Shown: piece by piece, positions 30,762 through 60,388 of the stretch | How the letters are laid out: every line of letters begins with the position of its first letter | Numbering within the stretch: the stretch's first letter is position 1 | Source of the DNA: Eledone cirrhosa | Lineage: Eukaryota | Length of the DNA stretch: 64,000 nucleotides | Reading direction: 5' to 3' | NCBI GenBank assembly: GCA_964016885.1 | Contig: OZ024742.1 | Coordinates: forward strand, 63,302,001 to 63,366,000 | Position numbers and translations under genes: made by a program | The notes under the pieces: model-generated | What the model saw: the letters and a program-made list of their open reading frames with translations, nothing else | Databases searched by the model: none | What the model was told of the DNA's origin: nothing

Positions 30762-31221
30762 TATTCAAATAAGGAAAAGCGAAGTAGTTTCAGATGTTAA
30801 AGTCCTTTAATAATAATGCTGTGATACATATTTCAATGGCGACAGTGGCCACACTGTTCCGTGCGTCAGTGCCGCGACATCGTCAGACAGCTTGTTACAT
30901 AATAAGGTTATGTTTCCGAGGTAATCGAAATTGAATCGACATGGGAACGGACGAAGTGTGTGCTCTTGGGTTCTTCGTCCGAACGGATCCAAGAGCACAT
31001 AACCTTATTATGTAACAAGCTGTCTGACGATGTCGCGGCACTGGCGCACGGAACAGCGTGGCCACTGTCGCCATTGAAATATGTACCACAGCATTATTAT
31101 ATAAGGACTTTAACATCTGAAATTACTTCGCTTTTCCTTATTCGATATTTACTCCGTCACTCCTATGTGGAATAAGTACGTTGAGTGCTTGAATTGAATT
31201 GCATCAATATTTACCTTAAGT
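30762..31221. mobile_element. Asymmetric fold-back PLE-like insert in (TA)n, with a hammerhead in each arm (30818-30891 minus; 31019-31092 plus)
   Basis: Arms ~30768-30912 / 30998-31142; gctgt-CTGACGA-[45 nt]-GAAA-tatgt-ATC/ACC-acagc. Confidence 0.8.
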
Positions 31222-32834
31222 ATATATATATATATATATATATATATATATATATATATATATATATATATATATATATATATATATATATATGCACACA
31301 TATGTATACATACATATGACCGACAGATCTCTGCAGTTTCCGTCTGCTAAATGATTCTGGTCACAACGCATTGGTCAACCTGGAAGTATGGTAGAAGATA
31401 ACACGCAGAGAAATTGAATTCAGGATCAACTCCTTAACCCATCCCCGAATCATATACTACACACACACACGTACACACACATAAACACAGTACACACACA
31501 CACACACACACACACACACACACACACACACACACACACACACACACACACACACACACACACACACACACACACGAATGTATGTGCATTTATCTGCATG
31601 CATGCATATATATTTAATATGTTTCTGTGTTTACCTCAATCAATATAGCTGCCGTCCTGATATCTACACTGCAATAGTTGCACAGTAGGACAGTTGCAAT
31701 ATGACACGTTTGCATATTGCTGCACATGTGAAAAATTGCGTTGCCAGCACACCAGAGAACAGTTGCAGAGTCCAATTCTTGCACAAATGTTTAATATGTT
31801 TAATAAATGTGTTGTAGAATAGAAGATGATGTTGATAGTGGTGGTGGTTGTGATGTTAGAAGGGATGATGTTGTGGGTGCTACGGGTGCTCCGGGTGCGA
31901 CCGATTATTGATTACTGATTTATCGCTCTATGTCGATTAATCGACTGCCGATATTCTATAATTTAATTACGTATTGTGATATGAAAATGTGTATTATAAT
32001 ATGTTATAATATTTTGAAATTAGTCCCAATTATGTAGTTATTTTTTAGTTCGTGCCGACAATATTAGGCTGATTTTAACGTTTTTTCTACCTTTTATTGC
32101 AATTAAATTGTGTCATTCAACAGCGCAACCTTCTGTATATAACACGTCCCACATTCTGTACTCACACATAGTTTTTTGCTGTTTTGTTTAATTATTGTGT
32201 GACCGTCACAATAATATGTGTAGTCTGAGTAGTTATATTGACATAAAGTGTAGAAGGCAACACTTAAGCATGGCAGTTAACATATTTGTTGTTAGCTAGC
32301 TAAACTTAGCCTGTTCATTCTCCGGTACTCATGAGTCAATACATCAGGGTTCCTGACAAAGCTGGTTGCTGTAGTGGATTCACTAAACTGGATCTTCTAG
32401 AGTTGTGTAATTCCTAGTCTAGTTAGTAAGGAGAATGTTGATTGGCTGTGCTTTTTTTTTTTTAAGAGAAAAGTCTGCATGCTATGTTTGAATAACTTTA
32501 AATAAGCATGTAATCAGAACCTTTATAATTAATTTCTTTTTAAAAGATCAATTAAACACATATCTTCTCAGCCGAGTAGGAGAGTCTTTCTTCTACCTTG
32601 ACACACTTTAACTTACAAAGGATTACGCCCCCCTGGGTAGATCAAAGTAATTTCCAGTTATATAGATCAGCGCATTTGAGTACTTGGAATATTATGTTGG
32701 TGAGTTTAGATTGCGAATGCTAGGAAATAATATTTGTTTCTTATGTGCCTTTATACAATGAATCCAGCGTCTCTGAATTTATCTGTCACACATGGTTTTT
32801 TTGCTCCAGTATACGTCGTACCTATCAATAATAA

Positions 32835-33243
32835 TTGTTTCTACGTTAGGCACAAGGCCAGCAAATACCCAGTGTATTACTGGTACTTTATTTTATCGAC
32901 CCCGTAAGGATGAAAGGCAAAGTTAACCTCGGCGGGATTTGAACTCAGAATGGCAAGGGCCGTAACTCTATGCGTCAAAGCATGGCGTCCGACCCTCTAC
33001 CAATACTGCCAATCCACCGCCCTATTATCAATAATAATGCTTTCTGATTTAGGCACAAGACCAGCAATTTTGGGGAGGGGAAAGTTGATTAAATCGACCC
33101 CAGTCCGTGACTGGTACTTTATTTTATCGACGCCGTAAGGATGAAAGGCAAAGCTAACCTCTGCGGAATTTTCACTCAGAACATAAAGGGCCGTAACTCT
33201 ATGCCGCGAAGGTACGGCGCTCTACCGATACTGTTAATCCACA
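32835..33243 (-). mobile_element. Two adjacent tRNA-derived SINE copies
   Basis: Two bodies (about 32835-33022 and 33040-33243) matching 807-1025. Confidence 0.85.
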
Positions 33244-56985: not shown

Positions 56986-57113
56986 TATATATATATATAT
57001 ATATATATATATATATATATATATTTCGCTTCTGAATTTGTTTAGCAAGATTCTTTATCTGAAAACGTGTGTTGAAACCGATATTATTATACTTTGGGAG
57101 GGTCATGTTGCCA

Positions 57114-58600
57114 ATAAGAAACACACGCACCAGTTGCTTTCACTCCAATTTATAATAAATTAAATTTATAAATCTAAGAATTTATTTATAAATTTCCGGT
57201 TGGTTGGTTGGTTCCATAACCGGACGGTTGTTCATATATTGTCAAAGTTCTTTTGTCACACATTCTGTGACCTCTTCAATGACTGAGGATTCTTTTCTTT
57301 CTTTTGTGCCTCTCCTTTGTTCTGTCCTACGCCATCTTGTTTGTGTGTGTGTTGTGTGCTTAGTTTGCGCATGTGTTACATCCGGGTGTCTGTGTGTGTT
57401 TTTATTTGTTTATTTATTTGTTTATTTACATGTTACTGGTTGGTTGTTTGTTCTATGTGTGTGTGTGTTTTCATTTTGTCCTTAATTGTAAGTTGTGATG
57501 TTGCTATTCCATTCATGTTTTCTATTTAATTTTGGTTGGAGTTCATTTATGTTTATTGCCTCTGTGATTTGTCTAAACATTGCGTCTTTTCTGAGTGTAG
57601 ATTCTATTTTTATTTCTATGTTCTCTAATTTGCCCTTATGTTCTATTTTATCATTTTGGTGGAGTATTGATGATTCTTTTTTATTTTGAAGTTCTCGCCA
57701 GTGTTCATTTAACCGTTCCCCTATACTACGAGCTATCTCACCTATGTACATTATAATCTTATCTTTACAATTGTCCTTCAGTACATCTTATGCTATATAC
57801 TACATTTCTAGTTTTACAGTTAATATGGGGGCTTAATTTACAGATTATACATTTCTTATCTATACAGGGAGGTCTTTGAAAAGGGTATGTATTGCTAATA
57901 AGTGTTTTTATGGAGGTACCTGGTCTTTCTACTATCTTAATATTAAGTTTATGTTTATCTAGGGCCCTTCTAAAATTGTAAGCTAATTCACCTCTAGGGG
58001 TTGTATTGATGAACATTACACTCTGGTATTTATTGCTATCATACCATGAGTTTATTCTATTAACCTTATTCCTAGTTCTTTCTATTCTATTCCAAAATTT
58101 GCTCCTATACTATTTTTTCCCATTTGGTTCTGGCTCCTCTATATACTCTGCTTTTATCTCTCTGATTGTAACCAGAGAACTGCATACGGTGGATTAAGTG
58201 TTGTATGTGTCTCTCTAGTTCTTTGGGGTTGCACATGCGGGACACGTTTCTCATCACCCGTACCAAATCCGCAATCAGTATGTTGATTTTGGTGTAATCC
58301 GAAACAGCTGAGTTTCGGTGGATCAGATATTTGGAAGTCATGGGTTTGGCATAATGGGAATGGAGGATTTTTTTTTGTTATTAATGGTTTCTAACCAGAG
58401 CTCTGTGTCTAGTACAGGTAATCGATGGTTTGGGTGTTTGCTTAGGTAGTCTATAGTAAATCTAATGCTCTGGTGGATGGAGTTAGCTATTTGCTGGATG
58501 CTTTCCATGGTGTTTTTCTCTAATTCCGGACTGTTCTCTAGAGTGGGTGTTTTTACTACGATGTTTATATCATCAACGTAGCGGGAGTACATTATCAGGG
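57114..58600 (-). mobile_element. Penelope-like element, inverted arm (RT5 to GIY-YIG and 3' pLTR), pseudogenised
   Basis: ORFs YSRYVDDINIVV, LPVLDTELW, CIDKKCIICK..CKTRNVVYSIRC, YIGEIARSIGERLNEHW...RQITEAININELQPKLNRKHEW; reverse complement of 58857-60388. Confidence 0.92.
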
Positions 58601-60388
58601 CTACCATTACGGGTGGACCAGAGCCATACGGACCCCCGAAAACCACGATGAACTAAAGAAAATCATTGCACATGCGGTGGGGGCCAGTATAAAATTAACC
58701 CTTAAGGAACATATGTTCAAATTTAATGGAAAAACATATGCCCAAGAGGAGGGAGCAGCCATTGGTGTTAGCATTGCAGGTGACTATTCATGGTATGGTG
58801 GGACAATAAACTTAAACTTAAACTTAAAGAACAATTAGAAGACAGCAACCTCTTAACCCTGATAATGTACTCCCGTTACGTTGATGATATAAACATCGTA
58901 GTAAAAACACCCCCACTAGAGAACAGTCAGGAATTAGAGAAACTCACCATGGAAAGCATCCAGCAAATAGCTAACTCCATCCACCAGAGCATTAGAGTTA
59001 CTATAGACTACCCAAGCAAACACCCCAACCATCGATTACCTGTACTAGACACAGAGCTCTGGTTAGAAACCATTAATAACAAAAAACAAATCCTCCATTC
59101 CCATTATGCCAAACCCATGACTTCCAAATATCTGATCCACTGAAACTCAGCTGTTTCGGAACACACCAAAATCAACATACTGATTGCGGATTTGGTACGG
59201 GTGATGAGAAACGTGTCCAGCATATGCAACCCCAAAGAACTAGAGAGACACATACAACACTTCATCCACCGTATGCAGTTCTCTGGTTACAATCAGAGAG
59301 ATAAAATCAGAGTATAAAGAGGAGCCAGAACCAAATGGGAAAAAATGGTAAATAATGACACAAATGGGACCTGCCCCTTGTATAGGAGCAAATTTTGGAA
59401 TAGAATAGAAAGAACTAGGAATAAGGTTAATAGAATAAACTCATGGTATGATAGCAATAAATACCAGAGTGTAATGTTCATTGATACAACCCCTAGAGGT
59501 GAATTAGCTTACAAATTTAGAAGGGCCCTAGATAAACATAAACTCAATATTAAGATAGTAGAAAGACCAGGTACCTCCATAAAAACACTTATTAGCAATA
59601 CATGCCCTTTTCAAAGACCTCCCTGTATAGATAAGAAATGTATAATCTGTAAATTAAGCGTCCATATTAGCTGTAAAACTAGAAATATAGTATATAGCAT
59701 AAGATGTACTGGAGGACAATGTAGAGATAAGAATATAGTGTACATAGGTGAGACAGCTCGTAGTATAGGAGAACCGATAAATGAACACTGGCGAGACCTT
59801 CAAGATAGTAAAGAATCATCCAACATGCTAAAATAGAACATAAGGGTAAATTAGAGAACATAGAAATAAAAATAGAATCTACACACAGAAAAGACGCAAT
59901 GTTTAGACAAATCACAGAGGCAATAAACATAAATGAACTCCAACCAAAATTAAATAGAAAACATGAATGGAACAGCAACATCACAACTTACAATTAAGCA
60001 CAAAATGAAAACACACACGCACATAGAACAAACAACCAACCAGTAACATGTAAATAAACAAATATAAACACACACAGACACCCGGACATGCGCAAACTAA
60101 GCACACAACACACAGACACCACACATGCGCAAACTAAGCACACAACACACACAAGAACAAGATGGCGTATGACAGAACAAAGGAGAGGCACAACACAAAG
60201 AAAAGAATCCCCAGTCACTGAAGAGGTCACAGAATGTGTGACGAAAGAACTTTGACAATGTATGAACAACCGTCCGATTATGGAACCAACCAACCAACCG
60301 GAAATTTATAAATACATTCTTAGATTTATAAATTTAATTTATTATAAATTGGAGTGAAAGCAACTGGTGCGTGTGGTGTGTTTCTTAT
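58601..60388 (+). mobile_element. 5'-truncated Penelope-like element (RT + Cys linker + GIY-YIG + 3' pLTR), pseudogenised
   Basis: HMFKFNGKTYAQEEGAAIGVSIAG, FMVWWD, YSRYVDD, NIVYSIRC..YIGETARS; stops and frameshifts; ends in (TA)n. Confidence 0.93.
60214..60256 (+). ncRNA. Minimal hammerhead in the PLE 3' pLTR (mutated mirror copy at 57241-57285, minus)
   Basis: gtca-CTGAAGA-ggtcacagaatgtgtgac-GAAA-gaa-CTT-tgac; stem I gtca/tgac, stem II gtcaca/tgtgac. Confidence 0.72.

What the first reader, a model, noticed from the sequence alone, without database searches (positions are those of the whole stretch)
30762..60388. Shared architecture of fold-back inserts suggests twin priming on (TA)n
Seen in six independent inserts (30762-31221, 48160-48412, 48728-48925, 54889-55131, 56557-56985, 57085-60388): (TA)n, short inverted arm, junction, long arm with a ~30-120-bp extra 3' tail, (TA)n. 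The short arm usually stops at an internal TAT/ATA microhomology that merges into the microsatellite (ttcctat|atat, accaat|atata, ttcttat|atat). Inference: (TA)n is self-complementary, so both nicked strands can prime reverse transcription on the same RNA, one at the 3' end and one internally, analogous to L1 twin priming. This would systematically seed hairpins in the genome.
Basis: inference. Interest (0 to 1): 0.75.

Follow-up and report, generated by a model that had tools for sequence, protein, structure and literature searches.

The report
Twin-primed Penelope retrotransposon hairpin insertions
The six hairpin-shaped inserts in TA repeats are head-to-head ends of five families of Penelope-like jumping genes, a published layout, and their many copies suggest that each is likely made when both ends of the cut DNA start copying one RNA at two fixed, marked sites, which would explain a long-unexplained feature of this class.

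Summary
The architecture is real and genome-wide: in 1.4 Mb of evenly spaced samples, 73 of 132 inverted repeats have (TA)n at one end and a 13-130 nt tail then (TA)n at the other, against 1% for random placement. The six inserts belong to five Penelope-like element (PLE) families: two Hydra-type, two Neptune-type, one non-coding tandem hammerhead unit. Inverted 5'-truncated copy, one-sided tail and (TA)n targeting are published PLE hallmarks; two start sites and extension of both strands were shown in vitro (PMC11167929). Twin priming is the best reading, with corrections: the short-arm end is family-fixed (104 of 120 within 5 nt), both starts are internal to the RNA, and the product is an inverted duplication, unlike L1. 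Beyond the papers I found: 120 of 121 same-family fold-backs pair one tailed with one tail-less end; either arm can be the longer; in three families both starts are followed by the same RCUC..GAGY stem; TA microhomology averages 3 nt; inner ends pile up at a predicted transcription start. This scan has reported the same reading many times on other DNA, including this genome. Empty alleles and RNA were not obtained.

The parts
30765..31220 (.). Insert 1, family A (non-coding ~1.3-kb tandem PLE-type unit): tail-less arm 30765-30984 (-), 12-nt junction insert, tailed arm 30997-31220 (+), tail ~31146-31220
31024..31092 (+). Predicted minimal type I hammerhead (CTGACGA...GAAA) of family A
   Evidence: core motif by pattern, consensus recalled; Rfam gave no hammerhead hit
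31151..31188 (+). ACTC...GAGT start-site stem just 3' of the inner start (S1) of family A
48159..48385 (.). Insert 2, family C (Hydra-type PLE end): tail-less arm 48159-48230 (-), tailed arm 48224-48385 (+); both arms stop 157 nt from the tail end
48386..48411 (+). 26-nt 3' fragment of family B appended to insert 2
48730..48922 (.). Insert 3, family B (Hydra-type PLE end): tailed arm 48730-48867 (-), tail-less arm 48867-48922 (+), tail 48730-48809
54892..55129 (.). Insert 4, family B: tail-less arm 54892-~54950 (-), duplicated junction, tailed arm ~54975-55129 (+), tail 55050-55129
55058..55081 (+). ACTC...GAGT start-site stem of family B, 8 nt 3' of the TAT microhomology
56557..56978 (.). Insert 5, family D (Neptune-type PLE end): tailed arm 56557-~56790 (-), tail 56557-56596, tail-less arm ~56790-56978 (+); GATC junction
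57025..60385 (.). Insert 6, family E (Neptune-type PLE): tailed arm 57025-58603 (-), tail-less arm 58604-60385 (+)
58652..59980 (+). Broken RT (YVDD), thumb, CX4CX2C linker and GIY-YIG endonuclease frame of family E (stops and frameshifts)
60218..60257 (+). Hammerhead-like core (CTGAAGA...GAAA) in the family E pLTR
30661..30764 (.). (TA)n target tract left of insert 1 (right tract 31221-31293); tracts also at 48117-48158, 48412-48476, 48701-48729, 48923-48963, 54845-54891, 55130-55178, 56500-56556, 56979-57024, 60386-60454

Best explanation
Each insert is a head-to-head pair of 5'-truncated ends of a Penelope-like retrotransposon in a (TA)n tract, likely made by twin priming on one RNA. Inferred steps: the element's GIY-YIG domain nicks both strands of (TA)n; two RT units load at two fixed internal sites of the pLTR (S1 and S2, 40-90 nt apart), each start helped by about 3 nt of pairing to the TA primer and, in the Hydra-type families and family A, marked by an RCUC..GAGY stem 6-9 nt downstream; one DNA end primes at S1, the other at S2; both cDNAs copy the same upstream stretch (the trailing RT would have to displace the leading cDNA); they stop at random or at the RNA 5' end (predicted transcription start in the pLTR), and are joined by short inverted microhomology or a few added bases. 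The S1-S2 distance is the tail. Shown: architecture, fixed ends, S1+S2 pairing, either arm longer, read-through, motif, links to RT/EN frames.
For: Fixed ends: 27 of 33 sampled and 77 of 87 search-derived tail-less ends within 5 nt of the family mode. S1+S2 in 120 of 121 same-family fold-backs, 33 of 33 in the even sample, while the two tightest two-family joins are S1-S1 (L008) and S2-S2 (L175). Either arm longer: 10 tail-less vs 3 tailed, 17 equal, in sampled A-E inserts; 8 vs 10 among 22 spacer-bearing sampled fold-backs of all clusters. Read-through past S2 in 11 of 20 B loci, 2 C and 10 A loci, with the stem again 6 nt after S2. Stem in 14 of 33 clusters vs 0.62 expected; first pair A-U 6, G-C 6, A-C 1 (p 0.005; 2 A-A rows left out). 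Microhomology 3.06 vs 1.01 nt. Junction overlap 2.3 vs 0.69 nt in 22 insert-free junctions. B inner ends pile at 126-142 nt; TATTTAAA lies 29 nt upstream of a TTAGTC A at 139. Arms closer within than between inserts (B 0.023 vs 0.076, n=13). In vitro precedent: both strands nicked and extended, two start sites bounding the tail, predicted dimer (PMC11167929).
Against: No empty allele, RNA 5' end or biochemistry was obtained. In PAc the start sites are not homologous to the cut DNA and both strands use the same sites, which does not by itself predict strict S1+S2 pairing. Microhomology is 0-1 nt in 4 of 25 clusters and at family A's S2 in most copies. The stem was picked post hoc and is absent from the Neptune-type families D and E; MFE folds recover it for only some sites. 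Only 38 of 111 junctions could be resolved, 16 of them with added bases. Subfamily concordance cannot separate one RNA from two RNAs of one locus. Two-family joins (2 plausible of 98 sampled two-ended segments) show that two RNAs, or later deletions, can also give head-to-head pairs.
Confidence: 0.7

Rival explanations
1. Dual priming: each DNA end copies its own RNA molecule (an RNP dimer holding two transcripts), with the two subunits biased to different start sites.
For: Head-to-head joins of two families exist (L008, L175, L115, L036, window 30195-30660). It avoids the need to displace a cDNA. Named for L1 as a theoretical route (PMC2837659 passages).
Against: 95 of 98 sampled two-ended segments are one family although at least 33 clusters coexist; arms share subfamily variants; strict S1+S2 pairing holds in same-family but not in two-family joins.
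Confidence: 0.15
2. One cDNA (or an antisense RNA) folds back on itself at a short palindrome and is extended, and the tail arises when the endonuclease or repair resolves the hairpin (self-priming model of PMC3846280; EN-resolution wording of PMC8557442).
For: 64 of 86 sampled fold-backs have no spacer; junction microhomology and recurrent palindromic junctions such as GATC in family D; published reading.
Against: A single folded strand fixes which arm holds the loop, yet both cases occur (window inserts 1 and 6); a tail-less arm that extends beyond the tailed arm cannot be a copy of it; 5 junctions have no overlap and 16 have added bases. It may still account for part of the symmetric stubs.
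Confidence: 0.1
3. One reading: priming at the RNA 3' end plus opportunistic annealing at any internal TA word, as in L1.
For: Microhomology above chance; a few atypical ends at other TAT words, e.g. window insert 6.
Against: Ends fixed in 104 of 120; B has TAT at 57 and 37 nt, C 17 such words, almost never used; sequence continues past S2; L1 outcome is inversion plus deletion.
Confidence: 0.03
4. MITE or fold-back DNA transposons, DNA-level fold-back repair at (TA)n, or assembly artefacts.
For: TA flanks and inverted repeats resemble TA-targeting MITEs (recalled).
Against: Ends asymmetric, inner junction variable, arms continuous with RT and GIY-YIG frames; contigs of an independent run show many different fold-back joints in the same family (15 shown of 140 joints, all at the centre of insert 4); arms have diverged (median 92%).
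Confidence: 0.02

Closest known systems
Insertion units of endonuclease-positive Penelope-like elements (PMC8557442 passages and section 11; PMC3846280 passages)
   Same: Inverted 5'-truncated copy head to head with the sense copy, one-sided tail, partial tandems with pLTR, (TA)n targeting that hides TSDs, hammerhead motifs.
   Different: Tails here are 38-90+ nt rather than 30-40; very short two-arm stubs dominate (about 60 per Mb sampled); the papers attribute the layout to EN resolution or self-priming, not twin priming.
Hydra clade PLEs (PMC8557442 section 11; supplement lists Hydra-1_Obim with (TA)n preference)
   Same: Families B and C: C-terminal GIY-YIG, RWR for RWK, DKT, CxCX5C linker, CxxC and CxH around E/N, no CCHH (L292, 721 aa).
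   Different: Unit about 3.5 kb with clear tandem pLTR; identity to named families not measured.
Neptune-type PLEs (motifs as described in PMC8557442)
   Same: Families D and E: C-terminal GIY-YIG preceded by CX4CX2C linker.
   Different: Clade not tested by phylogeny; Nematis not excluded.
PAc, Poseidon element of Anolis (PMC11167929, main text read)
   Same: Both strands nicked and extended, two internal start sites that bound the tail, AT-rich target, predicted dimer.
   Different: PAc starts without homology to the cut DNA, in an AC-rich stem-loop inside the ORF; here about 3 nt of TA homology, and in B the sites lie 5' of the ATG. The paper does not address inverted insertions.
L1 twin priming and dual priming (PMC2837659 passages)
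   Same: Second nicked strand primes a second RT; inverted join with microhomology.
   Different: L1 uses the poly(A) end plus a variable internal site and yields inversion with deletion; here two fixed internal sites yield an inverted duplication as the routine product.
Non-LTR retrozymes (bioRxiv 10.64898/2026.07.22.740005, parts 1-2 of 5 read)
   Same: Family A is a non-coding tandem unit with a type I hammerhead motif, PLE-style ends.
   Different: Unit about 1.3 kb, above the 51-972 bp reported; forms fold-backs with tails.

Membership tests
EN+ Penelope-like elements | RT and GIY-YIG endonuclease in one ORF | tested here: met
   B: intact 721-aa frame with YRDD and YIG (no Pfam hit); E: RVT_1 E 0.0015 and GIY-YIG E 0.0009, below curated cut-offs; C and D linked to such frames. 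Family A has no ORF.
EN+ Penelope-like elements | Partial tandems forming pLTRs | tested here: met
   B 11 of 20 loci, A 10 loci, C 2 loci read through the end into the body; not seen for D or E
EN+ Penelope-like elements | Inverted 5'-truncated copy and one-sided tail | tested here: met
EN+ Penelope-like elements | Hammerhead motif in pLTR | tested here: inconclusive
   Core patterns in A, C (CAGAAGA variant in most copies) and E; B core non-canonical; D none; no Rfam hammerhead hit; cleavage untested
EN+ Penelope-like elements | RT phylogeny with PLE clades | not tested
   No reference proteins were fetched
Hydra clade | RWK, DKT, CxCX5C linker, CxxC/CxH, no CCHH, (TA)n targets | tested here: met
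   L292 and L305 translations against section 11; RWR instead of RWK
Neptune clade | CX2-5CxxC linker before C-terminal GIY-YIG | tested here: met
   CIDKKCIIC in E, CDRPNCGIC in D (read from L129)
L1-type twin priming | First primer at the RNA 3' end | tested here: not met
   sequence continues past the tail end
L1-type twin priming | Inversion with internal deletion, variable internal site | tested here: not met
   arms overlap the same stretch; site fixed in 104 of 120
L1-type twin priming | Two cDNAs primed from the two nicked strands | tested here: met
   by inference from either arm being longer
MITE / fold-back DNA transposon | Symmetric fixed TIR ends and constant interior | tested here: not met
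   asymmetric ends, variable centre
Any targeted insertion | Empty allele with uninterrupted (TA)n, TSD | not testable with these tools
   no record spans the flanks; left flank of insert 4 is single-copy

The most novel reading that the evidence does not exclude
Twin priming is the normal, programmed insertion route of Hydra- and Neptune-type PLEs: the RNA carries two tandem start signals (TAT, 3-5 nt, RCUC..GAGY stem in the Hydra group), one for each subunit of an RT-endonuclease dimer, so every insertion is two cDNAs of the same RNA joined head to head; priming in the 5' pLTR runs off at the transcription start and leaves on the order of 10^5 short hairpins in this genome.
Probability: 0.55. 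Interest if true: 0.72.

Novelty: new variant of a known kind. Interest (0 to 1): 0.5.

Why it matters
How PLEs build their inverted repeats and tail is stated as open in PMC8557442 and left unvalidated in PMC11167929. The copy statistics give a concrete model with testable parts (two cis-signals, strict S1+S2 pairing, run-off at the RNA start) and an intact young Hydra-type frame exists for the published in vitro assay. It also means about 60 hairpins per Mb (86 in 1.4 Mb; roughly 1.8 x 10^5 if the sample is typical) are retrotransposon scars, a potential large source of double-stranded RNA, and should not be annotated as MITEs or microRNA precursors. The elements themselves and their layout are a known class.

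Tried and rejected
(1) Apparent systematic differences between the two arms (GAGCTC/GAGGTC in B, two sites in D, one in E) first suggested two templates; rejected as search bias toward the query's rare words, since the evenly sampled B inserts do not show them. (2) Four A>G alleles shared by both arms of insert 1 looked like RNA editing; rejected because the same letters occur in other family A copies. Shared private alleles overall show no A>G excess (9 of 43). (3) Empty alleles: no contig or read spanned the flanks (the raw-read run laid 0 reads); flank searches gave no second copy of the site. (4) RNA: no RNA holder listed; no evidence either way. (5) Rfam over 28000-64000 gave only sub-threshold microRNA-like matches to repeats. 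(6) repeat finder was swamped by a tandem array. (7) One of three sampled two-family segments (L212) is a same-family fold-back with a neighbour; four of eight in search loci are compound or loosely joined. (8) Clustering merged some unrelated tails through (TC)n/(CA)n and cut family C tails at an inner AT run, so cluster counts are approximate. (9) Paper searches for a twin-priming account of PLE inversions found none; subscription papers (e.g. the 2005 and 2006 PLE reviews) were not searchable, and figure supplements of PMC11167929 were not seen.
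Full report
Observation. The window lies in a 3.0-Gb microsatellite-rich animal genome (G000:C3:63302001-63366000; species not determined here). All six inserts are present, each between (TA)n tracts, with an inverted repeat and a one-sided extension. To test chance I took 140 evenly spaced 10-kb stretches. Of 171 inverted repeats, 22 with an inner TA run and 17 at edges were set aside; 73 of the remaining 132 have (TA)n within 12 nt of one end and a 13-130 nt tail then (TA)n at the other, against 1.0% of 23,645 random placements. 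Allowing tails to 240 nt gives 86 inserts in 33 approximate clusters. Contigs of an independent run show many alternative fold-back joints in family B (15 shown of 140), so this is not an assembly artefact.

What the inserts are. Insert 6 holds a broken RT plus GIY-YIG frame with a CX4CX2C linker. Copies of inserts 3 and 4 (family B) run upstream into an RT/GIY-YIG frame; an intact 721-aa copy has RWR, DKT, CxCX5C, CxxC and CxH and lacks CCHH, matching the Hydra clade description (PMC8557442 section 11). Family C (insert 2) links to a related frame; family D (insert 5) to a GIY-YIG with a Neptune-type linker (L129); family A (insert 1) is a non-coding head-to-tail unit of about 1.3 kb with a hammerhead core. 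An inverted 5'-truncated copy, a one-sided tail and (TA)n preference are described for PLEs (PMC8557442 passages; PMC3846280 passages; PMC8969392 passages).

End points. The tail-less arm ends at a family-fixed site S1: 27 of 33 sampled and 77 of 87 search-derived ends lie within 5 nt of the mode (40, 55, 77, 81, 90 nt from the tail end S2), although other TAT/ATA words are available in each tail. The inner junction varies from copy to copy. TA microhomology at S1 is real but modest: in 55 of 86 inserts with a clean join (25 clusters) the mean of cluster medians is 3.06 nt against 1.01 for random positions; 14 of 25 reach 3 nt or more, 4 have 1 or less (Fisher p 5e-5). S2 is not the RNA end: 11 of 20 B loci, 2 C loci and 10 A loci continue past it into the body. 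In B and C the continuation begins with TAT; in A mostly not.

A shared start signal. An RCTC word 7-9 nt after S1 with a GAGY partner downstream is present in 14 of 33 clusters (0.62 expected from shuffles; motif chosen post hoc). Its first pair covaries (A-U 6, G-C 6, A-C 1; two A-A rows left out; p 0.005). The same motif follows S2 by 6 nt in all three families where read-through was seen, so the two starts look like two copies of one cis-signal. It is absent from the Neptune-type families D and E, and energy folding recovers it only for some sites.

One cDNA or two, one RNA or two. Among sampled A-E fold-backs the tail-less arm reaches further 5' in 10, the tailed arm in 3, and 17 end within 10 nt of each other; search-derived 17, 21 and 42; 10 unresolved. 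Among 22 sampled spacer-bearing fold-backs of all clusters, the spacer continues the tail-less arm in 8 and the tailed arm in 10. A tail-less arm longer than the tailed arm cannot be a fold-back copy of it, so both arms were copied from template independently; window inserts 1 and 6 are such cases. Same-family fold-backs pair S1 with S2 in 120 of 121 (33 of 33 sampled). Of 98 sampled two-ended segments 95 are one family; the two tightest two-family joins in search loci are S1-S1 and S2-S2, as expected when RNAs are independent, though numbers are small and later deletions could mimic them. Arms of one insert are closer than arms of different inserts (B 0.023 vs 0.076, n 13; D, E likewise; C 0.027 vs 0.032). 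Together this favours one RNA with both sites used, but two RNAs of one locus are not excluded.

Inner ends. Of 111 junctions 38 could be resolved exactly; 16 carry added bases and 22 overlap by 2.3 nt on average against 0.69. Inner ends pile up: B 126-142 nt from S2 (26 of 32 sampled ends), C about 157-160, D 237-243. In B a TATTTAAA lies 29 nt upstream of the A in TTAGTC at 139, a TATA/initiator-like spacing (consensus recalled), so the symmetric stubs are likely run-offs to the transcription start; no RNA data were available.

Comparison. PAc nicks and extends both strands, starts at two internal sites that bound the tail and is predicted to dimerise, but starts without target homology and its paper does not treat inversions (PMC11167929 main text). 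PMC3846280 reads head-to-head repeats as self-priming on an antisense template. L1 twin priming uses the poly(A) end plus a variable internal site and gives inversion with deletion (PMC2837659 passages). So this works like twin priming in using both nicks, but is not L1-type twin priming; it is the PLE insertion signature with a mechanism that my searches did not find in print.

Earlier scan notes, read after my own analysis reached this reading, report the same conclusion, the tail stem, its twin copy and the RNA-start stop on other pieces of this genome and on other genomes; they are unchecked AI notes and are not counted as support.

Verdict. Interest 0.5: the layout is published and the scan has seen it repeatedly, but the counts turn an open question on PLE integration into specific experiments.

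Noticed in passing
window 30195-30660: Head-to-head pair of two different families (an E-related end, antisense, and a D-related end, sense) between TA tracts; candidate two-RNA insertion; the middle is not covered by my references.
   Followed up: partly
window 48477-48700: A further PLE-type family end (cluster F8) between inserts 2 and 3: antisense tailed end and sense tail-less end.
   Followed up: partly
window 28971-29108, 43094-43193, 14245-14505, 13529-13684, 38643-39004, 29855-29980: More single or decayed arms of family B and of clusters F1, F28, F0-sub, F2 beside TA tracts.
   Followed up: partly
window 28778-28904 and 56373-56499: Two 96% identical 127-nt pieces ending at (TA)n; about 200 genome candidates; carries a CTGATGA-like/GAAA-like region and an ACTC..GAGC pair; probably another PLE end.
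   Followed up: partly
window 55686-55714: Five TTAGGG units inside a stretch flanked by an 82% inverted repeat (55279-55415 / 55725-55853).
   Followed up: no
window 32828-33745 and 62363-63192: Inverted pairs of a very common ~190-nt SINE-like repeat that also inserts into PLE tails at TAT/TAA runs.
   Followed up: no
window 49379-~52000: Long C/A-skewed tandem array with 28-nt periodicity.
   Followed up: no
window 33949-34172 (-): Fragment of a Hydra-type RT, about 40% identical to family B.
   Followed up: no
L292:709-2871: Intact 721-aa Hydra-type ORF in a tandem; 40 scored copies of the RT stretch are 99% identical, so the family is young.
   Followed up: partly
L127, L162, L197: Same-direction chimeras between families (E into D, B into E, C into E), suggesting template jumps between PLE RNAs.
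   Followed up: no
family E, about 306 nt upstream of its tail end (window ~60160): AAGATGGCG word (YY1-like, recalled) just inside a pile-up of inner ends at 311-321 nt; may mark the transcription start.
   Followed up: partly
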